Source: a virus (taxonomy: Duplodnaviria > Heunggongvirae > Uroviricota > Caudoviricetes). From it: DNA of 64,000 nt. The DNA is taken from positions 1 through 64,000 of IMG/VR virus record IMGVR_UViG_3300029906_000003. One strand, 5' to 3'. The translations under genes and the position numbers were made by a program. The notes under the pieces were generated by a model. It searched no databases. It saw only the letters and a list, made by a program, of their open reading frames with translations, and was not told the origin of the DNA. Below are positions 21,757-63,062 of this stretch, piece by piece. Positions within the stretch are counted from its first letter, which is position 1, and each line of letters starts with the position of its first letter.

Positions 21757-21852
21757 TCGAGGCGGTGGGATTCGAACCCACATACTAGGGGTCAGAGCCC
21801 TAGGCTGTGAATGTTTTAGAGACATTTGCTGAACCAATTTAGCTACGCCTCG
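21757..21852 (-). tRNA. suppressor tRNA, anticodon CUA (reads UAG), long variable arm (type II), A73
   Basis: acceptor CGAGGCG/CGCCTCG, D-stem GCT/AGC, anticodon stem AATGT/ACATT with loop CTCTAAA (CUA at 34-36), variable arm hairpin CTAGGG-CTCTGAC-CCCTAG, T-arm GTGGG-TTCGAAT-CCCAC; CCA not encoded. Confidence 0.7.
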
Positions 21853-26642: not shown

Positions 26643-26658
26643 TAAGGAATTTTATCTA

Positions 26659-28291: not shown

Positions 28292-28297
28292 ATTTTT

Positions 28298-28373: not shown

Positions 28374-28374
28374 A

Positions 28375-28450: not shown

Positions 28451-28455
28451 ATAAT

Positions 28456-28530
28456 TGGCGGGTACACAGAGAATCGAACTCTGATTTTCAACTGGACAGG
28501 TTGAACTTCTAGCCATTGAACTATGCACCC
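28456..28530 (-). tRNA. tRNA-Asp(GUC)
   Basis: anticodon stem TCAAC/GTTGA, loop CTGTCCA, T-arm CAGAG-TTCGATT-CTCTG, CCA. Confidence 0.8.
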
Positions 28531-28534
28531 ATAA

Positions 28535-28611
28535 TGGAGGGGTATTTCAGATTTGAACTGAAGACACGAAGCTTAACAGGCTTCTGCTCTAACCTACTGA
28601 GCTAATACCCC
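28535..28611 (-). tRNA. tRNA-Asn(GUU)
   Basis: acceptor GGGGTAT/ATACCCC, anticodon stem GAAGC/GCTTC, loop CTGTTAA, CCA. Confidence 0.85.
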
Positions 28612-28757
28612 ATATATGGCGGGACAAGATGCGCCCTGCCGCAAGACAGTTTTATATTTCTTGCCTATCAAATATATATAAAAGAAATTTGCTGTATCTG
28701 TCTTATGTATTTATTATACCATTTTTTTATTTTTTTATCAATAAGGATTTTTTTTTA

Positions 28758-29585: not shown

Positions 29586-29646
29586 TTATCTACATTCTCC
29601 TTTTTGTGTCAATAATTATAACATAAAAAAGAAAAAATGTCAATGG

Positions 29647-29865
29647 TTACTTTTTTGTTTTAGTATCCGCACGGTAACACAGCATAGAAACTGTCCAACA
29701 CTCATTTCCACATTCAGGACAACTAGCTGTATAATACGGAGGATTCAAGTCGTCCGCGGGGTGAAGGCACGTTTCTGTCGCCCTTTCAGCTTCAAAGACG
29801 CACCCACACAAATTACAATGGAAACGAATATTATTATAGTGATAACCATGTTCAAGGACTCTCAT
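29647..29865 (-). CDS. zinc-ribbon protein
   Basis: two CxxC pairs (CNLCGC, CPECGNEC). Confidence 0.45.
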   Translation of the reverse strand: MRVLEHGYHYNNIRFHCNLCGCVFEAERATETCLHPADDLNPPYYTASCPECGNECWTVSMLCYRADTKTKK

Positions 29866-29869
29866 TATT

Positions 29870-30463
29870 TTATTCCTCCACTATTACTTGAAAGACTTCC
29901 TTATCTACCCACAATCCAGAATTTAATGCCTCTTCATGCGAATCAAAGTAAATGTCAATAATCTTTTTTCCTAGTCCGCCGCCGCGGTCTTCAACAATGT
30001 ACTCATGTCCATCAATAACAATCTTAGTTCCGAAAGGAATACCATTCATTGCCGCAGTCCTGCCCGCAGTAGCTTTCGTTCCAGATGCAGTAATGCCATC
30101 CGTCTTGCCGCAACACTTTACGCAAGGGCAATAGGCAGAAATCTTATAAACGCCAAGTGAAACCAATTCAGGTTCTTTCTCTTTTTTAGCTTCCGCCTCT
30201 TTAATAATTACAGCATCTTTTTCTTTTTGCTCTAAAGCTAACTGCTCCATAGTAAATTCATACGGAGACTGATATGCGACAAGCTCACTATCGCATTCTT
30301 GAGACGCAATGGCATTTTTTACCGAAATGCATCCTACTAACGCAATAAGTGCGATTCCCGCGATAAATTCCTTTCCCAATCTCATTTCTCTTTCTCCTTT
30401 TCTATTGTTTTGATGCAAAGAATGAGAACTGGGAGGGGTAATATTAATTAAAAAATGAGCCAA
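29870..30463 (-). CDS. 3D-domain (MltA/YocH-like) lytic transglycosylase lipoprotein. The likely true start is MRLGKEF.. near 30388.
   Basis: lipobox LIALVGC; 3D domain YKISAYCPCVKCCGKTDGITASG...IDIYFDSHEEA. Confidence 0.65.
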   Translation of the reverse strand: MAHFLINITPPSSHSLHQNNRKGEREMRLGKEFIAGIALIALVGCISVKNAIASQECDSELVAYQSPYEFTMEQLALEQKEKDAVIIKEAEAKKEKEPELVSLGVYKISAYCPCVKCCGKTDGITASGTKATAGRTAAMNGIPFGTKIVIDGHEYIVEDRGGGLGKKIIDIYFDSHEEALNSGLWVDKEVFQVIVEE

Positions 30464-30659
30464 ATAAATTATCTAAAATAGTCCAGACATCTATAAGGCT
30501 CATTTATTGGTGCCACCCCCGTGAATCGAACACGGAACCTGTCAATTATAAGTTGACTGCTCTGACCAGTTGAGCTAGAGCGGCATATAAGGAGGCTTGA
30601 AGCACCTTGTCGCTTTCACATGGCGGCCTCTTTCTTTATATATTATACCATTTTTATTC

Positions 30660-46415: not shown

Positions 46416-46471
46416 CAGAAAATTATATATAATATGATAGATAAAATACATAAAAAAGGAGAAAGGTAGAC

Positions 46472-48376: not shown

Positions 48377-50710
48377 ATGGATATAAGAGATGAATTAAGA
48401 CAAAATGCTGTTGATTATGCATATGAAGTTAATGTACAACGAGCTTTCCCTGATGTAAGAGATGGATTGAAACTTGGACAGCGGGCTTGCATATGGGAAA
48501 TGTATGTACGAGGCTATGCCTCAAATAAACCTCATGTCAAGTCGGCAAAGGTCTCAGGAGGGGTGATAGCGAACTGGCACCCTCACGGTGACGCTGCAGC
48601 CTATGAAACTTTTGCGCGTATGTCTATGCCATGGATTAATAATATTCCAGAAGTTGACTGGCATGGCGCGAACGGGAACCAAATTATTGGAAACGCTCCT
48701 GCTAGTTCTCGCTATACTGAAACGAGATTATCAAAAGCAACAGAAGAAGGTATGTTGCAAGGATTAAAGAAGAATAATGTTGATATGCAGTTAAATTTTT
48801 CAGAAGATGAAGAATGGCCTGTTGTATTGCCTGCAATTATGCCTCGACTTCTAATTAATGGTTGTCAAGGGATTGGTTTCACTATTTCAAATTGCTGGTT
48901 GCCTAATAATTTAAAGGAAATAAGCAAAGTTATTAATGAATATATATTAACAGGCACTCTTAACTATGATAATATATTTCCTGATTTTCCCACAGGTGGA
49001 ATCATCTTAAACAAAGATGAAATACATAAGATATATGAAACAGGAAAAGGTAGAGTCGTCTTGCGCGGCAAAGCAGAAATTGATAAGGATTCTATTCTTA
49101 TAACAGAACTCCCTTATCAAGTTTTTGTAGAACCTTTAATTGAGCAAATTAAGAAATTAGTAGAATCAGAAGATATTCTATATATTAAAGATATACTTAA
49201 TAAAAGCGATAGAAAAAAGCTACTTATTGAAATTGAGTGCGAGAAGAATAAAGCCTCAATAGTTTTAGCTAAATTATTTGAAATAACAGACCTTCAAAAG
49301 ACTTACAATGCAAATCAATACGCCTTGGTAGGCAAAACTCCTCAACTATTGACCTTAAAAGATTATATTGATATTTATGTAAAACATAATATTGAGTGTA
49401 TAAAGAGAGAATATCAATTTGACTTAAATAAAGTCCAAAATAGAATGGAAATAGTTTTGGGCTTAATTAAAGCGCTTGAAGATATAGATAATATTATTAG
49501 TTTAATTAAGAAAGCTGATAATTCTAAAGATGCTCAAAATAAATTGATAGAAAGATATTCTTTTACAGAGAGGCAAGCGAAAGGTATTATTGATATGAGG
49601 CTTGGTAAGCTAGCTCACCTTGAGAAAATTGAATTAAATCAAGAGAAAGAAGAATTGATTTCTCAAATTAAGGCTTTCAATCAAGTTTTAAGTTCTCAAC
49701 AAAGTCAAATCCAGATTTTATTAGATAGATTAAACACATTCGTTAAGAAATATGGCTATGAAAGAAGAACAAAAGTTATTCAACTAGAAGAAGATAAGAA
49801 AGCAAAAGAAGAAAAAGCTAAAAGTATTCCTAGTGAAAAAACTTTAATCAAGGTTAAAAGTAATAATGCAATAGAAAGAGAAAACATTAAGGACATAAAA
49901 GTCCAAAAAAAGTATGGTAAGGGGACTAAGGCCAATAATGAGTCATTAATCACTTTAATTTCTTCTTATACAGATAAGTATATAATGCTTTTTACAAACA
50001 TGGGAAGAATGTATAAGATATTAATAAATGATATTCCTGAATTAAATACAAATCTTTCTGACTTAATAAAACTAAAAGAAGATGAAAAAGTAATCGCGGC
50101 CGCCGTCCCTGAAAATACCGAGACTAAGTATGTCGTGTTCTTTACACGGAATGGATTACTAAAGAAGACTAGTTTCAGTGAGTATAATGATTTGAAGCGT
50201 GGGAGCGGGGTCGCAGCAATTAAATTGCTACCAGGAGATTCTGTAGTGAATGTGATTTTTATTAACGAAGAAAATGTATTTATCTTAACCAAAAACGGAA
50301 TTGGTATTCAATTTGAAACTAAAGATATTAAAGCAATAGGAAGAAATACTAGTGGAGTAAAGGCTATTAAATTAGAGGAAGGTGATAGTGTAGTACGCGG
50401 CCTCGCGTCCTCTGATGATTCATACGCAAGTCTTGCAATCTTTACTGAAAATGGATATGGTAAAAGGATTGGTGTCGATGAACTCTTTATCCAAGGCCGC
50501 GGAGGTAAAGGTCTTCAATACTATAAGTCAACTGACGAAACAGGTAAGATTATTGGAGGAATTTTTATAAAGGATTCTGATTCAAAGATTCTGTTAAGTG
50601 GAGTTTCTTCTAATCTATGTCTTGCTGCATCAGACATAATTCAAGCAGGCCGCTATAGTCAAGGGCATCTTCTAGCAAAGAACTATATCTTATCAGCAAC
50701 TTTGTTATAA
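48377..50710 (+). CDS. type IIA DNA topoisomerase, breakage-reunion subunit (GyrA/ParC-like)
   Basis: N-terminal RAFPDVRDGLKLGQRACIW; 777 aa. Confidence 0.8.
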   Translation: MDIRDELRQNAVDYAYEVNVQRAFPDVRDGLKLGQRACIWEMYVRGYASNKPHVKSAKVSGGVIANWHPHGDAAAYETFARMSMPWINNIPEVDWHGANGNQIIGNAPASSRYTETRLSKATEEGMLQGLKKNNVDMQLNFSEDEEWPVVLPAIMPRLLINGCQGIGFTISNCWLPNNLKEISKVINEYILTGTLNYDNIFPDFPTGGIILNKDEIHKIYETGKGRVVLRGKAEIDKDSILITELPYQVFVEPLIEQIKKLVESEDILYIKDILNKSDRKKLLIEIECEKNKASIVLAKLFEITDLQKTYNANQYALVGKTPQLLTLKDYIDIYVKHNIECIKREYQFDLNKVQNRMEIVLGLIKALEDIDNIISLIKKADNSKDAQNKLIERYSFTERQAKGIIDMRLGKLAHLEKIELNQEKEELISQIKAFNQVLSSQQSQIQILLDRLNTFVKKYGYERRTKVIQLEEDKKAKEEKAKSIPSEKTLIKVKSNNAIERENIKDIKVQKKYGKGTKANNESLITLISSYTDKYIMLFTNMGRMYKILINDIPELNTNLSDLIKLKEDEKVIAAAVPENTETKYVVFFTRNGLLKKTSFSEYNDLKRGSGVAAIKLLPGDSVVNVIFINEENVFILTKNGIGIQFETKDIKAIGRNTSGVKAIKLEEGDSVVRGLASSDDSYASLAIFTENGYGKRIGVDELFIQGRGGKGLQYYKSTDETGKIIGGIFIKDSDSKILLSGVSSNLCLAASDIIQAGRYSQGHLLAKNYILSATLL

Positions 50711-50786
50711 TGTTTTGAGGTCAAGATTTTTATCTTGACCATTTTATTTTATTATGGTATAATTATTATAAGAAAGTAGGTGTATT

Positions 50787-52709
50787 ATGGAAAATAATAT
50801 CCAAGAAAAGATTGCATTATTGAATAGAGCGACTAAAGCCTATGATGAAGGACATCCAATCATGTCTGATAAAGAATGGGACTCTATTTATTTTAGTATT
50901 AAGAGACAAGCAGATAGTCAAGGGATTGATTATCAAGTAGTATCTGAACTTAAAAAGGTTGAACACAATCATCCAATGCTTAGTCTCAATAAGACAAAAG
51001 ATATTGAAGTATTGAAATCATTTATTGGCGACCGAGAATATGTAGTTATGCCTAAATACGATGGTTTATCGTGTTCTCTATTGTATAAAAAAGGCAAATT
51101 AGTACGCGCTGAAACTCGCGGCAATGGCCAAGTCGGAGAGGATATTACTCATAATGCGATGGTTATTCCGTCTATCCCAAAATGGATTAACGACGAAAGT
51201 AAAGAAGTAATTGTTGATGGTGAAATTATTTGCCGCAATAATATTTTTCAGAAAAACTTTTCTGACCAATATAGTAATTCGAGAAATTTTGCGGCGGGCA
51301 GTATTAGATTGCTTGATGCTAATGAATGCGGCAAAAGAGGACTAGAGTTCTGGGCTTGGACACTAATTAAGAGTGATTCTAAGTCTAATTCTTTCAATCA
51401 GAATATGCTTTCTCTTTTTAACAATAGATTTTATGAGACTTGGATTTCATCAAAAGATGTACCTTCAATAGAGGCAGCGATTAGTGAACTAAAGTCTTGG
51501 GCCGCGTATAATTTTATTCCTATTGATGGCGTAGTAGTTAGATATGATGATGAAGAATATTCATCTTCTCTTGGTAATACTGCACATCATCCTCGTGGCG
51601 CATTGGCTTTTAAATTTTATGATGAAACTTATCCTACAAGGCTTGAAAATATTGAGTGGACTATGGGCCGTTTGGGCACTCTAACTCCCGTAGCTGTGTT
51701 TCAAGCTGTGGAAATTGATGGTGCAGTTATTAATAGAGCTAATTTACATAATATAACCATTATGAATGAGTTGCTTGGTCCGCATCCATATCAAGGGCAA
51801 GAAATTGAAGTCTATCGTGCAAACATGATAATTCCGCAAGTCTATTCGGCAGATAAAAAAATTCCTTCTGTGAAAGTAGAATACTTTGTAAAACCAGCAA
51901 TTTGTCCGTATTGCGGAGAGAAACTCGTTGAAAAAACTTTGAATGATTCTACAGTTTTAATGTGTGTAAACACTAGTTGTGAGTCAAACATGATTGAACG
52001 TTTGAATCATTTTGCGGGTAAGAAGGGTATGGATATTAAAGGATTATCTAAAGCTACCATAGAAAAACTTATCCGTAAAGGCTGGCTGAACTCTCCTTAT
52101 GATTTTTATGAATTAAAGAGTCATAAAGAAGAAATGATAAAGATGCCAGGTTTTGGTGTTAAATCTGTTGATAAAATTTTGAAAGCAATAGAACAAAGTA
52201 AAGAGGAATGCGACTGGCCGCAGTTTCTTTCTGCTATAGGTATTCCTTCTATTGGTATAAATGTGGCCAAAGAATTAGCTAATTATTTTGATTCATATCA
52301 GAGTTTTAGAGATGCAATCAATCAAGGATATAACTTCATGTCTCTGTATAATTTTGGTGAAAGCAAACATATTGAAATAATGAAATTTGATTATACAGAA
52401 GCGGATAAAGTGGCATCTATATTGACGTTCAAAAAAAATAATGTTATAAAAGATATAAGAAAAGGAAATAATCTTGAAGGACTAACTTTTGTTATTACTG
52501 GTAAACTTTCTCACTTTAAGAATAGAGATGAACTGAAAAGTTTGATTGAAAGTTATGGTGGTAAAGTAAAAGAAACTGTTAATAGAGATATTTCTTACCT
52601 TATTAATAATGATATTCAGTCAGGTTCTGCAAAAAATAAGAAGGCTAAAGATTTGAATATTCCTATTATTTCAGAAGAAACATTCTTGGAAAGATTTGAC
52701 TTATCATAA
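50787..52709 (+). CDS. ligA: NAD-dependent DNA ligase
   Basis: adenylation motif MPKYDGLS (KxDG), Cys4 zinc finger CPYCGE..C, C-terminal BRCT region. Confidence 0.85.
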   Translation: MENNIQEKIALLNRATKAYDEGHPIMSDKEWDSIYFSIKRQADSQGIDYQVVSELKKVEHNHPMLSLNKTKDIEVLKSFIGDREYVVMPKYDGLSCSLLYKKGKLVRAETRGNGQVGEDITHNAMVIPSIPKWINDESKEVIVDGEIICRNNIFQKNFSDQYSNSRNFAAGSIRLLDANECGKRGLEFWAWTLIKSDSKSNSFNQNMLSLFNNRFYETWISSKDVPSIEAAISELKSWAAYNFIPIDGVVVRYDDEEYSSSLGNTAHHPRGALAFKFYDETYPTRLENIEWTMGRLGTLTPVAVFQAVEIDGAVINRANLHNITIMNELLGPHPYQGQEIEVYRANMIIPQVYSADKKIPSVKVEYFVKPAICPYCGEKLVEKTLNDSTVLMCVNTSCESNMIERLNHFAGKKGMDIKGLSKATIEKLIRKGWLNSPYDFYELKSHKEEMIKMPGFGVKSVDKILKAIEQSKEECDWPQFLSAIGIPSIGINVAKELANYFDSYQSFRDAINQGYNFMSLYNFGESKHIEIMKFDYTEADKVASILTFKKNNVIKDIRKGNNLEGLTFVITGKLSHFKNRDELKSLIESYGGKVKETVNRDISYLINNDIQSGSAKNKKAKDLNIPIISEETFLERFDLS

Positions 52710-53246: not shown

Positions 53247-53275
53247 ATGGGACTCATAATGAGTCCCTTTTTTTG
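53247..53275 (+). terminator. rho-independent terminator
   Basis: gggactcataatgagtccc followed by tttttttg. Confidence 0.65.
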
Positions 53276-53286
53276 TAGGAGAATAT

Positions 53287-54237
53287 ATGACCATTGTTAT
53301 AATAATATTATTAATGCTTGTTATAATTCTTCTATTTATAAATACTTCTATAAAAAAAATAGATGCAAGAGAAGCATAGCTAAAAGTAGAAGAATTATAG
53401 CATAAGAATACGATACTACAGTATACAATATAGCAATAGCAAGATGAAAAAGAAAAATATTCTAGCAAGATAAATAATCTAATTCAAGAGAAAGAAAAAC
53501 TTGATACTGAAATAAACCAGAAGAAAATATGCTTAGTTAATTATGAAAAAGATATTGAACTAGATTACTAGAATAAACAATAGCAAATGAAAAATGCGGC
53601 AAGTCTTTATTTTGACTCGCTAGAAAAATCATATAAAACAAAAGAAGAAGAATATGATAAGAAGTGCGCGGCCCTCGTCTCAGAAATGGCGGACATGCAA
53701 TCCTAGTATGCAGAGATTTAGTCCCAACTTGTATAGGGCGCCGCGGCCGCATTAAGAGAGCGAGAAAAGAAAGAGAAGATTAATTTCTACAAACTCAAAT
53801 TATCAGATTCTGATTCTATTGATATAAAAGAATTGTTTGAGCTAAGAAAGAGGTTCCGCAATCCTTCTGCATTAAGCAAATTGGTTTGGAGCGAATACTT
53901 CTTGAAGTAGACCTCTGAATTATGTAATAGAGTATTGGGGACTAATACGAAATGCGGAATTTATAAAATAACTAACTTAATTTCTAATCAGGCTTATATT
54001 GGTCAAAGTGTAGATATAGCTAGTCGTTTTAAGCAACACATTAAATGCGGTTTGGGCATAGACGCGCCTGCATCAAATAAACTATATAAATCCATGATCG
54101 AAGATGGTGTTTGGAATTTTTCTTTTGAATTATTAGAAGAATGCCCTAAAGATAAATTAAATGAAAGAGAATCTTTCTGGATAGATTTATATTAGACTAA
54201 TAAAGTAGGATTAAATAGTACGAAAGGAAATGGCTAA
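53287..54237 (+). CDS. coiled-coil protein with a C-terminal GIY-YIG nuclease domain; 13 in-frame TAG codons
   Basis: One frame runs from ATG 53287 (RBS AGGAG) into track ORF 53935-54195 (GIYKITNLISNQAYIGQS..R..H..ERESFWI). Translation with TAG as X gives a Q/E/K-rich coiled coil. Confidence 0.6.
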
Positions 54238-54905
54238 TGGGACAAATTATTTTACAACCAGAAACTACAAAGAATGTATTTGAGCTAATGGGGCGGGCCG
54301 CGGGTTACTGTTATGGTTCAGACATTAGCAATGTTGAGAAGAATGTCAAGCGAGGCCGCGAGTGTTTTAAGAATAAGCACGACAGAACATTAGAATATCC
54401 TCAAATTTATGTAGTCTTTAAAGACTATTCTGCAAGAGTCATGAGAGAATTGTATACGCATATTGGCGGCGCACCTACAAGATTGCAGTCAAGTACGCGC
54501 TATATTAATTATGGAAATTTCAATTATGTAACGCCTAAAGCAATAGAGAAAGATAAAGATTTAAAAGACGAGTATGATAGGGCGATGAATAACATTGTTC
54601 TTAGTTATTGTGAGCTATTGTCTAAAGGGGTTAGCAAAGAAGATTTAGGTAATTTACTGCCATTAGGAATGTGTACTACAGTCTTTTTCCGTACTAATGC
54701 GCGCCAAGTGATTGATATGGCTCATACTCGTTTGTGCACGCGTGCGCTCCCTGAGTTTCAAGGACTCATGCATGATTTCAAAAGTGCGCTTGCCGCATAC
54801 TCACCAGACTGGGAAGAGATAGTTAATATTACTTTTCGTCCAAAATGTGAAATTCTTGGATACTGCCCAGAGAAAAATAGCTGCGGACGAATGCCGAAAA
54901 AGTGA
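54237..54905 (+). CDS. ThyX-family (flavin-dependent thymidylate synthase-like) protein with a divergent active-site motif
   Basis: GRAAGYCYGS, KHDRTLEY (compare GHESVLEH), SSTRY (SxRY), LPLGMCTTVFFRTNARQ; the canonical RHR motif reads THI here. Confidence 0.55.
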   Translation: MGQIILQPETTKNVFELMGRAAGYCYGSDISNVEKNVKRGRECFKNKHDRTLEYPQIYVVFKDYSARVMRELYTHIGGAPTRLQSSTRYINYGNFNYVTPKAIEKDKDLKDEYDRAMNNIVLSYCELLSKGVSKEDLGNLLPLGMCTTVFFRTNARQVIDMAHTRLCTRALPEFQGLMHDFKSALAAYSPDWEEIVNITFRPKCEILGYCPEKNSCGRMPKK

Positions 54906-55980: not shown

Positions 55981-56334
55981 ATGGCAATAGATTTATTGGC
56001 AATTTAGCCTCACAAGGTTAGTCGTGATTTGTCGGGGTACGCAGTCTATGTGTACGGACCAGCTAAAGTCGGCAAGACGACATTTGCGTCCCAGTTCCCG
56101 AATACACTCCTTCTCGCGTGTGAAAAAGGTTATAGCGCAATCCCCGGTATCTATCCCGTGGATATTACCTCATGGCGCGAGATTCGTGATGTCATAAGAG
56201 AGTTGAAAAAACCAGCAGTTAAAGAAAAGTTTCATACGATTGCTATTGATACAGTAGACCTTGCTGGAATGATGTGTGAAAAATATGTTTGCGCTTAGAA
56301 TGGCGTAGATAAGATTACCGAATTGCCTTACGGT
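55981..56334 (+). CDS. Sak4-like/AAA_24 recombination ATPase, exon 1 (1 in-frame TAG at codon 9)
   Basis: MAIDLLAI[TAG]PHKVSRDLSGYAVYVYGPAKVGKTT..IAIDTVD..ITELPYG; splice site inferred. Confidence 0.55.
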
Positions 56335-57430
56335 CTAAACTTGGCCGCCTAAGATAGAAATATTTTAGTGAAAACAGAGTAAAAACTGGAAGGCTGAAAT
56401 GCTAATCAGAGCGGAAGTTGGATTTTAAAAGGTCTAACACGCGCAACGCATAGGACTATTAAACAATAAAAGGGAGGTTTGGCCTGAATGGCGAAACGGA
56501 GAGAATTTTCTTTAGAAGAGATAGAAGATATATGTAATTCTTATAAATTAGGAGTTCCAAGACAACAATTAAGTTTAAAATATCATTGTACAGATAAAGT
56601 CATAGTTAGGATATTAGAAGAAAATAATATAAAAATTAGAAGAGTAAAGAATCCAGGAAAACATCCAAAAAGATATAATGTTAATGAAGAATATTTTAAT
56701 ATAAATAATCAAAGCAATAATAGTGCTTATATATTAGGTATATTAGCATCTGATGGATGTGTAGCAAAAAATCAAAATCAAATTTATATAGAGTTACAAA
56801 GATGTGATAAAGAGCTTTTAGAGAAGATAAATAAAGAAATAGAAAACGAACGGCCAATAAAAGATTACCATAATAACTCAAAAAATTATGATAATAGTAA
56901 ATTATATTTCTTCTCTAAACAAATAAAAGATGATTTATCTTTATATAATATAATTCCTAACAAGACTGCTTATAATAATGACTTTTTACATAATATTGAC
57001 CCCAGATATTATATAGACTTTATTAGAGGCTTATTTGATGGAGATGGAGCTATTAAATGGACAGGAGGTTCTATTCAATGGCAAATTGATTCCACTTCAT
57101 TAAAAACTCTTAATCATATTCAAGAAATATTAAAAGAAATAGGAATAGAAACAAAAATAGTTGGCAAGTCAGAAAAACAAATAATCCATTATAATGTTTA
57201 TAGAATATACTGCTATAACTATGAAAACTGTTATAAACTTTATCAATTATTTTATTCTAAAGAAAATGTCATTTGTTTAAACAGGAAAAAAGAACATTTT
57301 AAAGAACTTTTATTGAAATATAAGTCCCACGAGACTCTGGGCCTGTAAAAAGGCTAAAAGATATGCTGAACTTATACGAATAAGTAAGTATAAGAACTAG
57401 AGGATAAAAAGCCTCTAGGATAACATAATG
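56335..57430 (+). mobile_element. putative group I intron (about 1.1 kb) carrying a LAGLIDADG homing endonuclease ORF
   Basis: separates the two halves of the AAA_24 gene; 5' exon ends in U, intron ends in G; P9-like hairpin CTAGAGG..CCTCTAG near the 3' end. Confidence 0.5.
56488..57348 (+). CDS. LAGLIDADG homing endonuclease (double-motif)
   Basis: YILGILASDGCV and FIRGLFDGDGAI; own RBS AAGGGAGG. Confidence 0.8.
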   Translation: MAKRREFSLEEIEDICNSYKLGVPRQQLSLKYHCTDKVIVRILEENNIKIRRVKNPGKHPKRYNVNEEYFNINNQSNNSAYILGILASDGCVAKNQNQIYIELQRCDKELLEKINKEIENERPIKDYHNNSKNYDNSKLYFFSKQIKDDLSLYNIIPNKTAYNNDFLHNIDPRYYIDFIRGLFDGDGAIKWTGGSIQWQIDSTSLKTLNHIQEILKEIGIETKIVGKSEKQIIHYNVYRIYCYNYENCYKLYQLFYSKENVICLNRKKEHFKELLLKYKSHETLGL

Positions 57431-58075
57431 CAAGGTTGGAATCTAATGAAGCGTGAGTTTGAAGATGTGTGCAGAAACATAACGCAATCTGGATACGCAT
57501 TGATTTTCATCTCACACGATAAAGACCGCACTATAAAAGATGACAAAGGGCAAGAGATAATCCAAATCTTCCCTTCCTGCCCGTCTAGTTTTAATGATAT
57601 TGCAAAAAATGCAGCAGATATATATGGATATGCTCAAAAGTATAAAGATGAATCTGGTAAACCTAAAGTTCGTTTGGTATTACGTTCAGCGGATGGAAAT
57701 ATTGACACAGGGAGTCGTTTCAAGTACATTCGCCCTAGTATTGAATTTACTTATACAGCTCTTGTCGAAGCTGTAAATGAAGCAATAGACAAAGAAGCTG
57801 CGGAAACTGATAACAAGTTTATTACGAATGAGAGAGAAACCTTCAAAGAAGAAGAAAAGCTAGATTATAATACTTTAATTCAGCAGTTCAATGAAGAAGT
57901 ATCTCTCCTCATGGAGAAGAATAAGAGTTATTATGCTCCATATATTACAACTATTGTGAATAAGTATCTTGGAAAGAATAAAAAGGTCTCTGACTCAACC
58001 CCTGAACAAGTTGACTTAATTAAACTCATTGTTGACGAAATCAATGATGAATTAGTTAGCAAGATGAACTTATAA
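57431..58075 (+). CDS. Sak4-like/AAA_24 ATPase, exon 2
   Basis: QGWNLMKREF..GYALIFISHDKD (Walker B region) continues the frame from exon 1. Confidence 0.55.
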   Translation, partial: QGWNLMKREFEDVCRNITQSGYALIFISHDKDRTIKDDKGQEIIQIFPSCPSSFNDIAKNAADIYGYAQKYKDESGKPKVRLVLRSADGNIDTGSRFKYIRPSIEFTYTALVEAVNEAIDKEAAETDNKFITNERETFKEEEKLDYNTLIQQFNEEVSLLMEKNKSYYAPYITTIVNKYLGKNKKVSDSTPEQVDLIKLIVDEINDELVSKMNL

Positions 58076-58147
58076 AGATAACGAGGTCAAGGATAAAACC
58101 TTGACTTTTTTTTGTTATTATGATATATTTATTATAAGGTGATTTTT

Positions 58148-58669
58148 ATGGGCTTAAGAACCTGCATTTATTGTAAACAAAAATTTGACATAGATAAAGT
58201 TGATAAAGCAACTTTAGTTAAAGTTACTCCATCCAGATATGCTCACAAAAAATGCTATGAAGATTTTAATAACAATAGACTAAAGAAAAAAGGAAATGAA
58301 GTTACTCTTGAAGCGGTAAAGGCTTATATTAATGAAGCCTTAAAAGGGACTGAAATTAATTGGCCTAATCTAATGAAAGAGATTGTTAAGTATACCAAAT
58401 CAGGATATAATTATGAAAGAATTTATAAGACTTTGATTTATTGTTTTGAAGTCAAGAGAATAGATAAATTTAAGTTTAATGGGCATATTGGATTAATTAA
58501 TAATTATTTTGCAGAAGCGGCTAAGTATTATAAAGATATTGATAAATATAACGAATTAAAGGCAATAGAAATAAAGAAAGAGGACGCGGCCAAGCAGATA
58601 AAAATCCTGCCGCCGCGCAGTAAACCAAATATAAAGTTAATTGATTTGGAGGAAGATTTAGGTCTATGA
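58148..58669 (+). CDS. hypothetical zinc-finger protein
   Basis: ORF track (start at MGLRTCIYC). Confidence 0.5.
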   Translation: MGLRTCIYCKQKFDIDKVDKATLVKVTPSRYAHKKCYEDFNNNRLKKKGNEVTLEAVKAYINEALKGTEINWPNLMKEIVKYTKSGYNYERIYKTLIYCFEVKRIDKFKFNGHIGLINNYFAEAAKYYKDIDKYNELKAIEIKKEDAAKQIKILPPRSKPNIKLIDLEEDLGL

Positions 58670-60195
58670 ATAAAAGGATTGTAGATATGCAAAGTAATCT
58701 TCAAGTATTAGGAAATTTGTTGTTGAATCCTAGCCTTTTAGACCAGCCAGAATATAATGTAATCAAAGAAGATTTTACAGAAGATTTACATAGAGTAATT
58801 TTTGCCGCAGTAACTAATTTGTACAAGTTAGGAAATAAAGAAATTACTGCGCCTCTCATTAATGATTATTTAAGAGATAAAGTAAAAGCCTATACAATCT
58901 TCAAATCTTGTAATGGTATTAACTGGATAAAACAAACTCTTGAAATTGTTCAATCTAATGGATTTAATTATTATTATAAGAGAATGAAGAAGTTCACTCT
59001 TTTAAGAATGTATAATGATATTGGATTAGATATATCAAATTTTTATGATGCTGATAATGCTTTTGATTTAAAGAAGAAACAAAAGCAAGATGAATGGTTG
59101 GATAATACAGACGTTGAAGAAATAGCTGACTTAATTGATAAGAAAATTAATTCTATTAAGTTAAAATATGCGAATGTTTCAGAGTCAGATTTTTTTGATG
59201 GCGGCGATGGCATTGTCGAGTTGATTGAAAGTTTTAAATCAACCCCTGATGTGGGAATGCCTTTATATGGAGACATTATTAATACCGTAACGCGCGGCGC
59301 TCGTCTCGGAAAGTTTTATTTGCGCTCTATGCCGACAAATACTGGTAAGTCGCGTATGATGATTGCAGACGTATGTAACTTTGGATGCGATGAAATTTAT
59401 AATATTGAGACTGGTCGCTGGGAAAAGAATGGCGTGAAGGTAGAAACTTTATTCATCATTACAGAGCAGAAAAAAGATGAAGTACAAACTGCTATGTTGG
59501 CTTTTTTGTCTGGTGTTAATGAAGAAAAGATTAGATTATACTCATATAATGAGGATGAGTTGCAAAGAATTTATCATGCGGCTGAATTAATAAAGAACTC
59601 TAAAATCCATATAAAAGAATTACCAGATTTTTCCATGCAAGATATTGAAAATGCAATAAAATATTCAATTAATGAATGGGGAGTTCAATACGTATTATTT
59701 GATTATCTACATTCATCTTTGAAAATATTAAGTGAAGTATCTAGTAAAGCGCGAGTATCTAATTTAAGAGAAGATAACATTCTTTTTATGATTAGTACTC
59801 GCCTTAAAGATTTATGCACGCAATATGATATTTTTATTCTAACTTCCACCCAGTTGAATGGAGGATACCAAGATGCAACGGTATATGACCAGAACCTGTT
59901 GCGAGGAGCGAAGAGTATCGCGGACAAGACGGATATCGGAATGATTGGACTTGGTACCACAGAGAAAGACCGCGAGACACTGCAAAATCTCACTATACAG
60001 CTTGGTGTTCCAATGCCAAATATAAAAATCTCAATATATAAGAACAGGGGCGGCCGCTGGAAAGATATTATTCTATGGTGCAATGCAGATAAAGGTATTT
60101 GTAGATATAATCCAATCTTTGTTACAGACTATAACTATGAGTTGATTCCTATTGTTGATTTAAAAATTAATGTAGAGGATTTAAATAATGCTTGA
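58666..60195 (+). CDS. DnaB-family replicative helicase
   Basis: N-terminal DnaB-like domain; RecA-fold motifs GARLGKFYLRSMPTNTGKS and KNRGG. Confidence 0.7.
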   Translation: MNKRIVDMQSNLQVLGNLLLNPSLLDQPEYNVIKEDFTEDLHRVIFAAVTNLYKLGNKEITAPLINDYLRDKVKAYTIFKSCNGINWIKQTLEIVQSNGFNYYYKRMKKFTLLRMYNDIGLDISNFYDADNAFDLKKKQKQDEWLDNTDVEEIADLIDKKINSIKLKYANVSESDFFDGGDGIVELIESFKSTPDVGMPLYGDIINTVTRGARLGKFYLRSMPTNTGKSRMMIADVCNFGCDEIYNIETGRWEKNGVKVETLFIITEQKKDEVQTAMLAFLSGVNEEKIRLYSYNEDELQRIYHAAELIKNSKIHIKELPDFSMQDIENAIKYSINEWGVQYVLFDYLHSSLKILSEVSSKARVSNLREDNILFMISTRLKDLCTQYDIFILTSTQLNGGYQDATVYDQNLLRGAKSIADKTDIGMIGLGTTEKDRETLQNLTIQLGVPMPNIKISIYKNRGGRWKDIILWCNADKGICRYNPIFVTDYNYELIPIVDLKINVEDLNNA

Positions 60196-61294
60196 TAAAG
60201 ACCAAATAAAAAATTCTTTAAGTATCAATCAAATCTTTGATTTTTTATCAGAGTATGGCGGCGAGCCAATAGTGAAAGATAGTAATACTATTATTAGTAA
60301 AACTATCTGTCATAATGCAATAGAAGAAATAAATGATGCAAGTTATAAGTTATATTATTATGACAACACTCATTTGTTTCATTGTTATACTGGATGTGCA
60401 GAGCCTAGCTTTGATATATACGATTTAATGACTAAAATCAAAAATATTAATGGCAATGACCAATGGAAAATGGCTAATTCTGTTTTTTATATAGCAGAGT
60501 ATTTTGGTTATTCTCAATTAGATTCAACTTTAAGCCAAGAAGAAAAAGTTTTACCAGATTGGAAAATCCTTAAAGATTATGATAAAATAAATTTAGAAAT
60601 AGATGAAAAACAAATTGTTGAATTAAAAATCTATGATGAAAAAGTTCTTAGATATTTGCCTAGGCCGCATATCTTAAATTGGGAAAGAGAAGGAATAACT
60701 AAACAGGTCATGCAAAAGAATAATATTTGTTATGACCCTTTAAGTCAAGGGATAGTTATTCCACATTATAATATTGAGAATCAATTAATTGGAATAAGAG
60801 AAAGAACACTAATTAAAGATAAAGAAATAGAAGGAAAATATAAACCAGCTTTTTTGAATGGGCAATTATATAATCATCCATTAGGATTTAATTTATATAA
60901 TATAAACAATAGCAAAAATAACATAAAACTAATGCAGAAAGCTATTATCTTTGAGTCAGAGAAATCAACTTTGTTAATGCAATCATATTTTCCTGGAGCT
61001 GATATTAGTGTAGCGTGCTGCGGCAGCAATTTAACTAATTATCAATTCAAGTTATTGTTATCTCTTGGCGTAAATGAAGTTTCAATAGCTTTTGATAGGC
61101 AATTTAAGAAAGTTGGAGATGAAGAATTTAAAAGATGGACAAAAAAGCTGGAGAGTATTAATAATAAATATAAAGGCTTTTGTCGTATTACTTTTCTGTT
61201 TGATAAAAAAGGACTATTAAATTACAAAGATAGTCCAATAGATTGCGGGCCAGATATATTTATGAAATTATACACAGAAAGGATTGCTATGTAA
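60188..61294 (+). CDS. DNA primase (zinc-binding plus TOPRIM)
   Basis: CHNAI..HLFHCYTGC zinc finger; TOPRIM IIFESEKS. Confidence 0.7.
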   Translation: MLDKDQIKNSLSINQIFDFLSEYGGEPIVKDSNTIISKTICHNAIEEINDASYKLYYYDNTHLFHCYTGCAEPSFDIYDLMTKIKNINGNDQWKMANSVFYIAEYFGYSQLDSTLSQEEKVLPDWKILKDYDKINLEIDEKQIVELKIYDEKVLRYLPRPHILNWEREGITKQVMQKNNICYDPLSQGIVIPHYNIENQLIGIRERTLIKDKEIEGKYKPAFLNGQLYNHPLGFNLYNINNSKNNIKLMQKAIIFESEKSTLLMQSYFPGADISVACCGSNLTNYQFKLLLSLGVNEVSIAFDRQFKKVGDEEFKRWTKKLESINNKYKGFCRITFLFDKKGLLNYKDSPIDCGPDIFMKLYTERIAM

Positions 61295-61298
61295 GAAA

Positions 61299-63062
61299 AT
61301 GGGTTTTAACTTTAAACTAATTAATCCTAGAAATGAATTATATACAATAGAAGAATAGATATTAACGAATCGTGGAATCCCTTATGAATTAGTTAGCTCT
61401 TATTTGGATAGAAATAACTTTGATGACATTGCTGAACCAGAAACTTTAGGAGAAGAATTGTTGGAGAAGGCGGCTAAAGCAATAGGAGAATGTATTGAAC
61501 GCGGCGGCCGCACCCTTGTCATAGTGGATTGCGATGTTGATGGGTATACCTCTAGTGCTTTACTTGTCAATTATTTAAATCGTATTGCCCCCACATGGGC
61601 TAAGGACAATCTCTTTTATTATCATCATACCTCTAAACAACATGGTCTGGGAGATTGTATAGATGAAGCGTTGAAATATGATTTAGTTATTTGTCCAGAT
61701 AGTGCATCTTCTGATGTAAATGAGCATAAGAGATTATATGATGCAGGAATACCTTTAATCGTATTAGACCACCACTTGACAGACATCGGAGAAAATACTT
61801 TAAACTATCCTTATGCTATTATTATAAATAGCTAGTGCAATGGATACAAAAATAAAGATTTATCTGGCGTAGGAGTTGTTTGGCAGTTCTGTAGATATTG
61901 TGATAAAAGAATGAACCGCAATTATGCAGATGATTATTTAGACTTGGCCGCGGTTGGACTAGTAGGAGATATGATGGATTTGAAGTCTATGGAGACGAAG
62001 GAACTAGTCCAATTAGGGCTTGGCCGCATCCATAATCCTTTTCTTGTTGGTATGTGTGAGAAGAACGCTTTCTCAATGAAGGGTGCAGTTAATCCATTTA
62101 CCGTAACATTTTATATTGTGCCTTTTGTTAATGCGATAACTAGAAGCGGAACTCAAGAGGAAAAAGAATTAATTTTTGATTCAATGCTTGAGTCAAAAGC
62201 TAATAATAAGATTCTTTCAACAAAAAGAGGTCATAAGTTAGGAGAACAAGAAACAATCCTTACGCAAGCTCTTAGGGTAGTTACAAATGTTAAAAAACGT
62301 CAAACTGATGCTCAAGATGCTAGTGTAGAATATCTAGAGCGCATTATCGCAGAGAAAGGACTGGCCGCGCACAAAACTTTAATTATCACTTTAGAAAATA
62401 ATAATAAGGTTGAACCAGAAGTTAGAGGTTTAATTGCTAATAAATTAATGGCTAAATATTGCAGGCCTTGTTGCATTTTAACGTTGCGGAATGACATCTA
62501 TGAAGGTAGTGCAAGAGGATATGAAAAAGGTAGTGTGAAAGATTTCAAAAATATATGCGAACAAACTGGCTTGATTGAATACGCGCAAGGTCATATGTCC
62601 GCCTTTGGTCTTAGTGTGGCTAAAGAAAATTTAGCTAAATTTATTGAGACATTAGATGATATTCTTGTAGATTTTACCCCTGATTCTTCTTACTTTGTTG
62701 ATTTTATTTATGAGAATAAAGATATTCCTGATAAAGACATTCTGACTATTGCTTCCATGAATGATTTGTGGGGGCAAGGAGTAGCAGAACCTTATATTGC
62801 AATTATTCATTTAAAATTGACTAAAGATATGATAACACTAATGTCGCCTGGCGCGCATCCTACACTAAAGTTTTCTGTCAATAAAATAGGTATTATTAAA
62901 TTTAAAGCTAGTCAAGAAGAATATGAACAGTTAATAGCTGATGGATACGTTGAACTTAATATTATTGGTAGATGCGCAAAAAATGAATGGCATGGAAGAA
63001 TTTCACCTCAAATACTTGTAACTGATTATGAAATAATTAGTAAATGTGATTATGATTTTTGA
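61299..63062 (+). CDS. recJ: RecJ-like DHH-family 5'-3' ssDNA exonuclease with 2 in-frame TAG codons
   Basis: One frame from ATG 61299 runs through the TAGs at about 61365 and 61836 and joins track ORFs 61404-61835 and 61911-63062. Motifs ILTNRGI, VIVDCDVDGYTS, VLDHHLTD. Confidence 0.7.

What the first reader, a model, noticed from the sequence alone, without database searches (positions are those of the whole stretch)
55981..58075. Sak4-like (AAA_24) recombination ATPase gene split by a LAGLIDADG-encoding group I-like intron
The N-terminal part (P-loop GPAKVGKTT ... ELPYG) and the C-terminal part (QGWN..ALIFISHDKD...) of one AAA_24 protein are separated by about 1.1 kb. That gap contains a free-standing double-motif LAGLIDADG endonuclease ORF with its own RBS in a different frame. 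The exon 1 reading frame otherwise terminates 5 codons after the proposed splice point. The proposed boundaries (after ..TACGGT at about 56334 and before CAAGGT at about 57431) restore ..ELPYG|QGW.., which is typical of the family.
Basis: partly seen in the sequence, partly recalled or inferred. Interest (0 to 1): 0.7.

Follow-up and report, generated by a model that had tools for sequence, protein, structure and literature searches.

The report
Mobile group I intron splitting phage Sak4 gene
A phage recombination gene (Sak4/AAA_24) is interrupted by a 1,096-base self-splicing-type group I intron that carries its own LAGLIDADG homing endonuclease gene, a well-known kind of selfish element. The gene also contains two amber (TAG) codons that this phage most likely reads as glutamine.

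Summary
Exon 1 is 55981-56334, the intron is 56335-57430, and exon 2 is 57431-58075. Joined, they give a 332-aa protein that matches Pfam AAA_24 end to end in one stretch. It aligns without a gap to uninterrupted homologues that read ..YGQGWNLMKREF.. across the junction.

The gap has group I anatomy:
- a U.G pair at the 5' splice site, made with an internal guide;
- a P10 pairing with exon 2;
- a terminal G;
- helices P2-P9.1, with the P3/P7 pseudoknot.

This intron family occurs in many phage contigs. Across 14 members, 99.3% of helix positions pair and 32 of 48 pairs show compensatory changes. Four diverged Sak4 genes carry the intron at the same codon, and their P10 guides change to match their own exon 2.

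The LAGLIDADG ORF (56488-57348) sits in a hairpin between P7 and P3'.

Two points were missed or wrong. Exon 1 has two in-frame TAG codons; homologues have Gln at both positions, and an amber-suppressor tRNA lies in the window. The endonuclease ORF is in the same frame as exon 1.

Rfam's group I model does not detect this family. A model of the family's 3' domain finds the validated Twort introns in register.

Verdict: a new member of a known kind, of moderate interest.

The parts
55981..56334 (+). Exon 1 of the Sak4-like/AAA_24 gene (118 codons). It has a GGAGG ribosome-binding site 7 nt upstream, Walker A GPAKVGKT and Walker B IAIDTVD.
   Evidence: The N-terminus MAIDLLAI(TAG)PHKVSRDLSGY is conserved with L004, L005 and L025.
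56005..56007 (+). In-frame TAG, codon 9 of exon 1, most likely read as Gln.
   Evidence: Homologues have Q here in L004, L005, L025 and SPbeta YorG, and E in the Enterococcus and Geobacillus phages.
56296..56298 (+). In-frame TAG, codon 107 of exon 1, most likely read as Gln.
   Evidence: Homologues have Q here in L004, L005, L025, L026, VRE9_4 and SPbeta, and K in Geobacillus phage GR1.
56335..57430 (+). Group I intron (1,096 nt), ending in the terminal G at 57430.
56331..56347 (+). P1 and the internal guide. Exon CGGU plus intron C (56331-56335) pairs with GGCCG (56343-56347), with U56334.G56344 at the splice site. CUUG (56340-56343) pairs with exon 2 CAAG to form P10.
   Evidence: Read from the sequence. 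The same CGGU/GCCG pairing occurs in L023, L025 and L026. P10 covaries: CAAG/CUUG, GCAGG/UUUGC, GGAG/CUCU.
56349..56368 (+). P2 hairpin, 8 bp, with a GAAA tetraloop.
   Evidence: The loop is GAAA, GUGA or GUAA in most family members, GAGA in L025, and the 3-nt CAA in L011 and L017.
56375..56380 (+). P3 5' strand CAGAGU, followed by J3/4 AAAAA.
   Evidence: Pairs with ACUCUG at 57334-57339. All 6 pairs show compensatory changes across the family (helix 1).
56386..56409 (+). P4-P5 domain: CUGG AA GGC UGAAAU GCU AA UCAG.
   Evidence: An exact 24-mer shared with 16 IMG/VR contigs and unique in the window. P5 covaries in L025, ACC/GGU.
56411..56442 (+). P6 (GCG/CGC) enclosing the P6a hairpin (56417-56438).
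   Evidence: helices 3 and 4: GCG/CGC, GGU/GCC, GUG/CAC.
56444..56451 (+). P7 5' strand CAACGCAU. It has two bulged bases and an invariant G-C pair, the presumed guanosine-binding site.
   Evidence: Pairs with AUGCUG at 57363-57368. Two pairs covary, A-U to G-C (helix 5). The arrangement matches Twort GCAACGACUA / UAGUCUG.
56453..56457 (+). 5' strand (GGACU) of the P7.1-like hairpin between P7 and P3'. Its loop holds the endonuclease gene.
   Evidence: Pairs with AGUCC at 57323-57327. In other members without an ORF here it is a short hairpin. 4 of 5 pairs covary (helix 6).
56488..57348 (+). Double-motif LAGLIDADG homing endonuclease ORF (286 aa) with RBS AAAGGGAGG at 56469-56477. Its last 26 nt overlap the P7.1-like 3' strand, P3' and the P8 5' strand. 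It contains no TAG codon and is 24.7% GC.
   Evidence: Both motifs, ILGILASDG and IRGLFDGDG, keep the acidic residue.
57323..57339 (+). P7.1-like 3' strand AGUCC, conserved junction CACGAG, and P3 3' strand ACUCUG.
57340..57355 (+). P8 hairpin GGCCU-GUAAAA-AGGCU.
   Evidence: (helix 7).
57356..57368 (+). J8/7 (AAAAGAU) and P7 3' strand (AUGCUG).
57371..57430 (+). P9 (57371-57394), P9.1 (57397-57418) and the 3' tail GAUAACAUAAUG ending in the terminal G.
   Evidence: (helices 8 and 9). Model R1 scores 94.4 bits here and aligns in register to the 3' ends of Twort introns.
57431..58075 (+). Exon 2 of the Sak4-like gene (214 codons plus a TAA stop).
58083..58108 (+). Terminator-like hairpin plus T-run after the Sak4 stop. 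No such site lies between the exons on this strand.
21757..21852 (-). tRNA with anticodon CUA (amber suppressor) and a 25-nt insertion in the variable region. It is the probable decoder of the two exon 1 TAG codons.
   Evidence: Rfam tRNA alignment at 56.7 bits places CUA in the anticodon position. The ARAGORN call 'Phe(aaa)' rests on a poor stem.

Best explanation
The window encodes a single Sak4-like (AAA_24, YorG-type) recombination ATPase. A mobile group I intron interrupts it between codons 118 and 119, inside the conserved motif PYG|QGW.

How it most likely works:
- The gene is transcribed as one unit.
- The intron folds into a compact core resembling subgroup IA: P1-P2, P3-P8, P4-P6, P7, one extra hairpin between P7 and P3', then P9 and P9.1.
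- Its internal guide pairs with the last bases of exon 1 through a U.G wobble, and with the first bases of exon 2 (P10).
- Two transesterifications, started by a free guanosine and ending at the terminal G (57430), join the exons into an mRNA for a 332-aa protein.
- The in-frame TAA five codons into the intron would release ribosomes before they enter the ribozyme core.
- The double-motif LAGLIDADG endonuclease is encoded in the loop of the extra hairpin. It would cut intron-less Sak4 alleles at the PYG/QGW site and copy the intron in by repair (homing).
- Making full-length Sak4 also requires reading two TAG codons in exon 1 as an amino acid, most likely Gln, using the phage's own tRNA(CUA).

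Shown here: the anatomy, covariation of the helices, exact boundaries, recurrence at the same site, existence of intron-less alleles, and Gln in homologues at the TAG positions.

Inferred: catalytic splicing, endonuclease activity and homing, and which amino acid is inserted at TAG.
For: 1. **One gene.** The spliced product hits AAA_24 over 2-194/195 in one stretch (E=4e-37) and phrog_124 Sak4-like (E=1.3e-50). Uninterrupted homologues cover 98% of it. L004 and L005 are 56% identical, syntenic, and read AYGQGWNLMKREF across the junction.

2. **Splice-site rules.**
- U is the last exon base and pairs with G of the guide GGCCG.
- The intron ends in G.
- P10 is CAAG/CUUG.
- In three other Sak4 alleles with the intron at the same codon, P1 is kept. 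P10 changes with exon 2: GCAGG/UUUGC in L023 and GGAG/CUCU in L026.

3. **Core structure.**
- A 24-nt P4-P5 segment is identical in 16 IMG/VR contigs.
- On 14 members, 99.3% of cells pair and 32 of 48 pairs show changes on both sides.
- The covariation score is 0.697 against 0.186 in shuffles (0 of 500 shuffles reach it). Slid controls pair at 31-39%.
- This includes the P3 and P7 pseudoknot helices.

4. **Link to validated group I introns.** A covariance model of the family's 3' domain finds Twort orf142 introns I2 and I3 in register at their 3' ends (24.0 and 20.3 bits; E about 0.005 and 0.035). The P7 layout (GCAACG.. / ..CUGAAC) and the tail (GUAACAUAAUUG against GAUAACAUAAUG) match.

5. 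**Endonuclease.** Two LAGLIDADG_3 stretches. About 28% identity to I-MsaII, annotated as intron-encoded in the rec gene of Staphylococcus phage MSA6. 179 homologues with E<=1e-10. Two relatives whose contigs were fetched sit in the same split-Sak4 arrangement.

6. **Co-transcription.** There is no terminator-like site on the + strand between the exons, and there is one after exon 2.

7. **TAG read as sense.** Gln in homologues at both positions. Conserved protein sequence upstream of the first TAG. A tRNA(CUA) in the window. Other long ORFs with 11 in-frame TAGs each.
Against: - Rfam's group I model RF00028 gives no hit at E<=10, in the window or in ORF-less family members L010 and L020. It does detect the three Twort introns at 64-101 bits. 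Group I membership therefore rests on anatomy and covariation, plus a weak covariance-model link.
- A sequence-only profile of the family does not reach Twort significantly.
- The helix strands used for the covariation count were extracted with anchors and RNAfold, so that alignment leans towards the structure. The 14 sequences are also related to each other.
- Exon 2 is immediately preceded by ATG, with AGGA 7 nt upstream, so separate translation of the second half cannot be excluded.
- No transcript or biochemical data exist.
Confidence: 0.9

Rival explanations
1. Gene in pieces without splicing. The endonuclease cassette split Sak4 into two separately translated polypeptides that reassemble. 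The N-terminal piece would end at the TAA at 56350. The C-terminal piece would start at the ATG at 57428. Split phage genes flanking free-standing homing endonuclease genes are a precedent.
For: - The ORF at 57428-58075 starts with ATG exactly at the junction, and AGGA lies 7 nt upstream.
- Gene callers annotate the halves as separate genes in L025 and L026.
- Three of the four Sak4 alleles end the insert in ATG and the fourth in TTG.
Against: - The terminal NUG is a feature of the whole family: CUG, GUG, UUG, AUG and UCG occur in other host genes.
- AGGA is not conserved; other members have ACGAUAACA, AAGAUAACA or UAGAUAACA.
- About 235 nt of non-coding flank is conserved as a covarying ribozyme core. 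A free-standing endonuclease gene would have no need for it.
- The guide sequence tracks exon 1 and exon 2 in each allele, which only makes sense if the exons are ligated.
- The split falls inside the ATPase core.
Confidence: 0.05
2. Decayed gene. The Sak4 gene is a pseudogene inactivated by two amber stops and by an intron that no longer splices.
For: - Under the standard code, exon 1 is broken at codons 9 and 107.
- No curated RNA model recognises the intron.
Against: - The protein sequence is conserved on both sides of each TAG, and homologues have Gln at both positions.
- In-frame TAGs recur in other long ORFs of the window, and a tRNA(CUA) is present.
- There are no frameshifts or other stops in 332 codons.
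- All family-invariant core positions and all helices are intact in the window copy.
- The endonuclease ORF is intact, with both catalytic motifs.
Confidence: 0.04
3. Another kind of intervening element: an intein or a group II intron.
For: LAGLIDADG endonucleases also occur in inteins and in some organellar group II introns (general knowledge).
Against: - The ORF is separated from exon 1 by five stop codons and is out of frame with exon 2, so it cannot be an intein.
- There is no reverse transcriptase, the insert is only 1.1 kb, and Rfam finds no group II match at its gathering threshold.
- The RNA has group I topology.
Confidence: 0.01

Closest known systems
Group I introns of Staphylococcus phage Twort orf142 (subgroup IA2; self-splicing shown experimentally and a ribozyme crystal structure solved, from my own knowledge of the literature)
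   Same: - Same order of helices.
- An extra hairpin region between P7 and P3'.
- P7 with bulged bases: GCAACG.. pairing with ..CUGAAC.
- J8/7 of the AAGAUAU type.
- P9 and P9.1 followed by the tail (G)AUAACAUAAU(U)G.
- A GUAA loop on P2 in Twort, the same kind of tetraloop as the window's GAAA.
- The family's 3'-domain model finds Twort I2 and I3 in register.
   Different: - Much smaller P4-P6 domain: P4 has 4 bp and P5 has 3 bp.
- P7 is one pair shorter.
- A single hairpin in place of P7.1 plus P7.2.
- Not detected by Rfam RF00028, which scores Twort at 64-101 bits.
- A sequence profile alone does not connect the two.
- The host gene differs.
rec (RecA-like) gene intron with I-MsaII in Staphylococcus phage MSA6 (Kayvirus)
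   Same: - A LAGLIDADG endonuclease of the same PHROG-level family (about 28% identity over 93%).
- It sits inside an annotated intron of a recombination gene of a Firmicutes phage.
- The ORF's 3' end overlaps the ribozyme core.
   Different: - A different host gene.
- A different ribozyme core, with P7 GACUAU/AUAGUC.
- By eye, the ORF lies further downstream, towards P8, rather than in the hairpin between P7 and P3'.
Introns of Bastillevirinae, T-even and other phages (PMC11878797, PMC3984707)
   Same: - Self-splicing-type group I introns of the IA kind in essential phage genes.
- A homing endonuclease is often carried in a loop.
- There is often an in-frame stop just inside the intron.
   Different: - Reported host genes are DNA polymerase, terminase, thymidylate synthase and ribonucleotide reductase. 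A full-text search found no paper that reports an intron in a Sak4 gene.
- LAGLIDADG is the minority endonuclease type in phage introns.
TAG-to-Gln recoded phages (genetic code 15; bioRxiv 10.1101/2021.08.26.457843)
   Same: - In-frame TAG at Gln positions.
- A phage-encoded suppressor tRNA.
- Uneven use of TAG among genes.
- That paper also notes a group I intron endonuclease in recoded phages.
   Different: - In the reported TGA-recoded Agate phages it is the intron endonuclease that is preferentially recoded. Here the endonuclease ORF has no TAG and the host exon has two.
- The suppressor tRNA here has an unusually long variable-region insertion.

Membership tests
Group I intron | The last exon base is U and forms a U.G wobble with the internal guide sequence (P1). 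| tested here: met
   CGGU|C pairs with GGCCG (56331-56335 with 56343-56347). The same pairing occurs in L023, L025 and L026.
Group I intron | The intron ends in G, and the guide pairs with the start of the 3' exon (P10). | tested here: met
   G at 57430. All family members whose 3' end could be located (15 loci and the window) end in G. P10 is CAAG/CUUG and covaries with exon 2 in L023 and L026.
Group I intron | A conserved core of P3-P8 and P4-P6 domains, with P3 and P7 forming the characteristic pseudoknot. | tested here: met
   99.3% of cells pair and 32 of 48 pairs show compensatory change. P3 shows it in 6 of 6 pairs and P7 in 2 of 6. No shuffle of 500 reaches the observed values. Caveat: the alignment was built with structure-aware extraction.
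Group I intron | A guanosine-binding G-C pair in P7 next to a bulged base, A-rich J3/4 and J4/5, and J8/7. | tested here: met
   G-C at columns 64/126 is invariant and flanked by a bulge. J3/4 is AAAAA, J4/5 is AA, and J8/7 is AAAAGAU. Function is inferred only.
Group I intron | A match to the curated covariance model Rfam RF00028. | tested here: not met
   No hit at E<=10 in the window, in L013, or in L010 and L020. The positive control, Twort, scores 64-101 bits. This is a property of the model rather than a defining biological feature.
Group I intron | Detectable homology to an experimentally validated self-splicing intron. | tested here: inconclusive
   Model R1 finds Twort I2 and I3 in register, but only at 20-24 bits (rough E of 0.005-0.035). 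nhmmer is not significant.
Group I intron | Guanosine-dependent self-splicing. | not testable with these tools
   Needs in vitro transcription and splicing, or RNA-seq.
Subgroup IA2 | P7.1 and P7.2 helices between P7 and P3'. | tested here: inconclusive
   One covarying hairpin occupies that position, with a small nested hairpin in some members. Two separate helices are not seen.
LAGLIDADG homing endonuclease | Two LAGLIDADG motifs with conserved acidic residues in a single chain. | tested here: met
   Pfam LAGLIDADG_3, two stretches, E=7e-17. The motifs are ILGILASDG and IRGLFDGDG.
LAGLIDADG homing endonuclease | Site-specific cleavage of the intron-less allele, and homing. | not testable with these tools
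   Circumstantial only. The insertion codon is the same in four diverged Sak4 genes, and intron-less alleles carry TATGGT|CAAGGTTGG.
Sak4-like / AAA_24 (YorG-type) protein | A full-length AAA_24 domain with Walker A and B. | tested here: met
   AAA_24 over 2-194/195, E=4e-37. phrog_124, E=1.3e-50. The synteny YorF-like, Sak4, YorH-like, DnaB is shared with SPbeta and Enterococcus phages.
Sak4-like / AAA_24 (YorG-type) protein | Single-strand annealing activity. | not testable with these tools
   A biochemical property.
Genetic code 15 (TAG = Gln) phage | In-frame TAG at conserved Gln positions, plus a suppressor tRNA. | tested here: met
   Both Sak4 TAGs and RecJ-like codon 189 align with Q. 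tRNA(CUA) lies at 21757-21852. The amino acid actually inserted is not shown.
Intein | An in-frame fusion of the endonuclease with both host protein halves. | tested here: not met
   Five stop codons lie between exon 1 and the ORF, and the ORF is out of frame with exon 2.

The most novel reading that the evidence does not exclude
The intron belongs to a compact, widespread lineage of group I introns in phages of Firmicutes that the curated Rfam model does not detect.
- One ribozyme scaffold carries endonuclease ORFs (LAGLIDADG wherever one was identified) in at least two different places: upstream of the guide/P2, and in the hairpin between P7 and P3'. Further insertions with unidentified content lie in P8 and downstream of P9.
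- It has colonised at least five different essential genes: terminase, Pol III alpha-like, GyrA-like, an AAA+ gene and Sak4.
- In this TAG-recoded phage the host exon is amber-gated and the endonuclease is not. Sak4 production would then depend on both splicing and the onset of suppression, while the endonuclease can be made under the standard code.

If this holds, it would justify a new covariance model or subgroup. It would also be a test case for how recoding and intron mobility are timed.
Probability: 0.25. Interest if true: 0.5.

Novelty: new member of a known kind. Interest (0 to 1): 0.35.

Why it matters
- **Annotation.** Under the standard code and without intron awareness, this one gene is called as three or four unrelated fragments. 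The same happens in related contigs, where gene callers report two AAA_24 stubs around a LAGLIDADG gene.
- **Detection.** The family is common: 16 exact core matches in IMG/VR and 45 GenBank phage records, mostly unannotated. Rfam's group I model does not detect it, so a dedicated model would recover many split phage genes.
- **Biology.** It adds a recombination ATPase to the list of phage genes invaded by mobile introns. It also shows an intron-bearing gene that needs stop-codon suppression as well. Neither point changes what is known about how such elements work.

Tried and rejected
1. **Rfam scans.** The whole window at gathering threshold, and 56200-57600 at E<=10, gave no group I hit. At first this looked uninformative, because the annotated MSA6 rec intron is also missed. 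Later controls were clearer: Twort is found while ORF-less family members are not.

2. **My first hand folds.** Comparative data rejected both.
- P8 = UUUGGCC/GGCUAAA enclosing the ORF, with a weak P3.
- P7 = GGACU/AGUCC, by analogy with MSA6. GGACU/AGUCC is in fact the hairpin between P7 and P3'. The true P3' (ACUCUG) and P8 lie at and just after the end of the ORF.

3. **Plain minimum-free-energy folding of the ORF-deleted intron.** It recovers the hairpins but not the pseudoknotted core.

4. **Pattern-based search for the endonuclease in IMG/VR.** It found nothing. The large protein database and a DNA core pattern worked instead.

5. **nhmmer profile of the family against Twort and MSA6.** Not significant.

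6. **ARAGORN's 'tRNA-Phe(aaa)'.** Rejected in favour of anticodon CUA.

7. **Loci I first took to be ORF-less.** L011, L013, L014, L017, L019 and L021 have a LAGLIDADG ORF upstream of the guide/P2.

8. **Other copies in the window.** A search for further copies of the intron core found none.
Full report
**What is at the coordinates**

- An ATG at 55981, preceded by GGAGG, opens a frame that encodes MAIDLLAI..GPAKVGKTT..IAIDTVD..ELPYG. The frame runs into a TAA at 56350, five codons after 56334.
- A 286-aa ORF at 56488-57348 has its own AAAGGGAGG ribosome-binding site.
- From 57431 a third frame encodes QGWNLMKREF..ALIFISHDKD.. to a TAA at 58073-58075.

Joining 56334 to 57431 gives 332 codons. 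That protein matches Pfam AAA_24 over profile positions 2-194 of 195 in a single stretch (E=4e-37). It also matches PHROG 124, 'Sak4-like ssDNA annealing protein' (E=1.3e-50). The middle ORF has two LAGLIDADG_3 stretches (E=7e-17).

Two details differ from the finding.
- The endonuclease ORF is in the same frame as exon 1 (offset 507 nt), separated from it by five stops. It is out of frame only with exon 2.
- Exon 1 has two in-frame TAG codons, at codon 9 (56005) and codon 107 (56296).

**Are the halves one gene?**

Yes.
- Uninterrupted homologues exist in Enterococcus phages (41% identity over 98% of the length), SPbeta (YorG) and others.
- The neighbourhood is the same: a YorF-like gene upstream, and a YorH-like gene and a DnaB helicase downstream.
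- Two IMG/VR contigs, L004 and L005, carry 56%-identical, syntenic, uninterrupted genes. They read ..AYGQGWNLMKREF.. where the window reads ..LPYG|QGWNLMKREF...
- The multiple alignment has no gap at the junction.

**Is the gap a group I intron?**

Rfam finds nothing there, even at E<=10. I therefore worked from the sequence and from relatives.

A 24-nt segment, CTGGAAGGCTGAAATGCTAATCAG, is present exactly in 16 IMG/VR contigs and only once in the window. Lining these up showed a shared RNA. In order, it has:
- a guide sequence;
- P2, whose loop is a GNRA-type tetraloop in most members;
- P3, then an A-rich J3/4;
- P4 (CUGG/UCAG) with AA on both sides of a 3-bp P5;
- P6 and P6a;
- the P7 5' strand, CAACGCAU;
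- a hairpin, then a conserved CACGAG;
- P3', then P8;
- J8/7 (AAAAGAU), then P7' (AUGCUG);
- P9 and P9.1;
- the tail GAUAACA-N3-5-G.

In the window these elements lie at the coordinates given under 'parts'. I built a helix-normalised, gapless alignment of 14 members. On it, 99.3% of helix cells pair and 32 of 48 pairs show changes on both sides. The covariation score is 0.697 against 0.186 in shuffles (0 of 500 reach it). Sliding the partners by 1-3 columns drops pairing to 31-39%. All six P3 pairs and two P7 pairs covary, so the P3/P7 pseudoknot that defines group I topology is supported. One caveat applies: the strands were picked using anchors and RNAfold, so the alignment leans towards the structure, and the sequences are related to each other.

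**Splice sites**

- The last exon base is U56334. It pairs with G56344 within CGGU|C / GGCCG.
- CUUG, just 5' of that guide, pairs with the first four bases of exon 2 (CAAG).
- The intron ends in G57430.

Four other contigs carry a Sak4 gene split at the same codon by the same intron plus a LAGLIDADG ORF: L023, L025, L026 and L027.
- Their P1 pairing is the same.
- Their P10 guides differ in step with their own exon 2: GCAGG/UUUGC in L023 and GGAG/CUCU in L026.
- That is what exon ligation at exactly this junction predicts.
- L025 also shows a compensatory change in P5, ACC/GGU.

**Relation to known group I introns**

- Rfam RF00028 detects the three validated Twort orf142 introns at 64-101 bits.
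- It does not detect ORF-less members of this family. The family therefore lies outside that model.
- A covariance model built only from the family's 3' domain finds Twort introns I2 and I3 in register at their 3' ends. The scores are 24.0 and 20.3 bits, with rough E-values of 0.005 and 0.035.
- The P7 layout, with its two bulges, and the tail sequence correspond.
- A sequence-only profile is not significant.
- In the Rfam alignment of Twort, the extra P7.1/P7.2 region is an insertion between P7 and P3'. The window's ORF-bearing hairpin sits in the same place.

I conclude that this is a compact group I intron resembling subgroup IA. Assignment to IA2 itself stays open.

**The endonuclease**

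- Both motifs (ILGILASDG and IRGLFDGDG) keep the acidic residue.
- The ORF is about 28% identical to I-MsaII, annotated as intron-encoded in the rec gene of Staphylococcus phage MSA6.
- It has 179 homologues with E<=1e-10.
- It is 24.7% GC, against 35-44% for the exons.
- Its last 26 nt overlap the hairpin's 3' strand, P3' and the start of P8.
- Intron-less alleles have TATGGT|CAAGGTTGG at the site, and intron-bearing alleles have TACGGT|.

Homing is inferred from these facts and was not tested.

**The family elsewhere**

The same ribozyme scaffold interrupts several other genes:
- terminase-like genes (L010, L018, L019, L020, L024);
- an AAA+ gene (L011);
- a Pol III alpha-like gene (L013);
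- a GyrA-like gene (L021).

In several of these a LAGLIDADG ORF lies upstream of the guide/P2 instead. L009 has an insertion in P8 that holds a short ORF. L012 has extra sequence downstream of P9 that begins an ORF. BLAST finds the 3' domain in 45 GenBank phage records, mostly without annotation. They include C. difficile phiCD211, Staphylococcus phage 6ec, C. perfringens phages, S. suis phages and a phage named cr128_1.

**The rival reading**

Exon 2 is preceded by ATG with AGGA 7 nt upstream, so the halves might be translated separately. Three observations make this a minor possibility.
- The terminal NUG is a feature of the whole family (CUG, GUG, UUG, AUG, UCG), and AGGA is not conserved.
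- The conserved, covarying core would have no purpose.
- The guide sequences track both exons.

**The TAG codons**

- Protein conservation continues across both TAGs.
- L004, L005 and L025 have Gln codons at both positions, and most other homologues also have Q.
- Other ORFs have many in-frame TAGs: 8294-16123 has 11, and the coiled-coil/GIY-YIG gene at 53263-54237 has 11.
- A tRNA at 21757-21852 (- strand), which ARAGORN mislabels, has anticodon CUA in the Rfam alignment.

The phage therefore most likely reads TAG as Gln, as described for recoded gut phages. The endonuclease ORF has no TAG.

**Comparison with the literature and verdict**

- Group I introns with homing endonucleases in phage genes are well known (PMC3984707, PMC11878797).
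- An in-frame stop just inside the intron is a recognised feature.
- Recoded phages with intron endonucleases have been noted.
- A full-text search for Sak4 together with 'group I intron' found one paper, on the SPP1 genome. It mentions each term once and is not about such an intron.

This is a correct finding of an ordinary kind of element. It sits in a new host gene and belongs to an under-annotated intron lineage, with stop-codon recoding in the host exon as an added feature.

Noticed in passing
window 21757-21852 (- strand): A tRNA with anticodon CUA (amber suppressor) carrying a 25-nt stem-loop insertion in the variable region and discriminator A. ARAGORN calls it tRNA-Phe(aaa) on a poor stem. 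A long variable arm is typical of Ser, Leu and Tyr tRNAs, yet TAG aligns with Gln in homologues. How it is charged is unexplained.
   Followed up: partly
window 8294-16123 (+), 53263-54237 (+), 61266-63062 (+), 7142-7873 (-): Long ORFs that are open only if TAG is sense, with 11, 11, 2 and 4 in-frame TAGs. Many other long ORFs have none (for example 46454-52709 and 58666-61294). TAG use is very uneven among genes.
   Followed up: partly
window 53263-54237 (+): A TAG-rich gene encoding an N-terminal transmembrane/coiled-coil region and a C-terminal GIY-YIG nuclease domain (Pfam E=1.2e-8). It lies next to thyX (54234-54902). A homologue is present in the syntenic contig L004. It may be a free-standing homing endonuclease.
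   Followed up: partly
window 25918-26506 (- strand): A full-length ROOL RNA (Rfam RF03087, 303 bits) embedded in the tRNA array.
   Followed up: no
window 20175-30584 (- strand): An array of at least 24 tRNA genes. Rfam finds one that ARAGORN misses (23252-23322; Cys GCA by eye). It also finds a tRNA-like fragment lacking a 3' acceptor strand (23871-23933; anticodon GAU by eye).
   Followed up: partly
L026 1096-2043 and 4714-5882 (NCBI GCA_947632375.1): A related phage has a second LAGLIDADG ORF immediately upstream of the AAA_24 fragment that carries the P-loop, in addition to the one at the PYG site. Its DnaB helicase gene carries a LAGLIDADG domain (intein-like). The replication module appears to be a hotspot for selfish elements.
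   Followed up: no
L009-L024 (IMG/VR), L010 and L020 in particular: The same ribozyme scaffold interrupts terminase-like, AAA+, Pol III alpha-like and GyrA-like genes. A LAGLIDADG ORF lies upstream of the guide/P2 in several members, and other members have insertions in P8 or downstream of P9. Compact ORF-less members of about 250 nt get no Rfam RF00028 hit at E<=10, while Twort introns score 64-101 bits.
   Followed up: partly
GenBank phages, for example NC_029048.2 28794-28862, NC_024355.1 22656-22719, NC_011318.1 5778-5823, NC_055885.1 76982-77050: The 3' domain of this intron family matches unannotated stretches ('none' under the match) in C. difficile phiCD211, Staphylococcus phage 6ec, C. 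perfringens phiCP39-O and uncultured phage cr128_1. These are probably unannotated introns.
   Followed up: no
window 56488-57348: The endonuclease ORF is 24.7% GC, against 35-44% for the flanking exons. It contains no TAG codon although the host exon does.
   Followed up: partly
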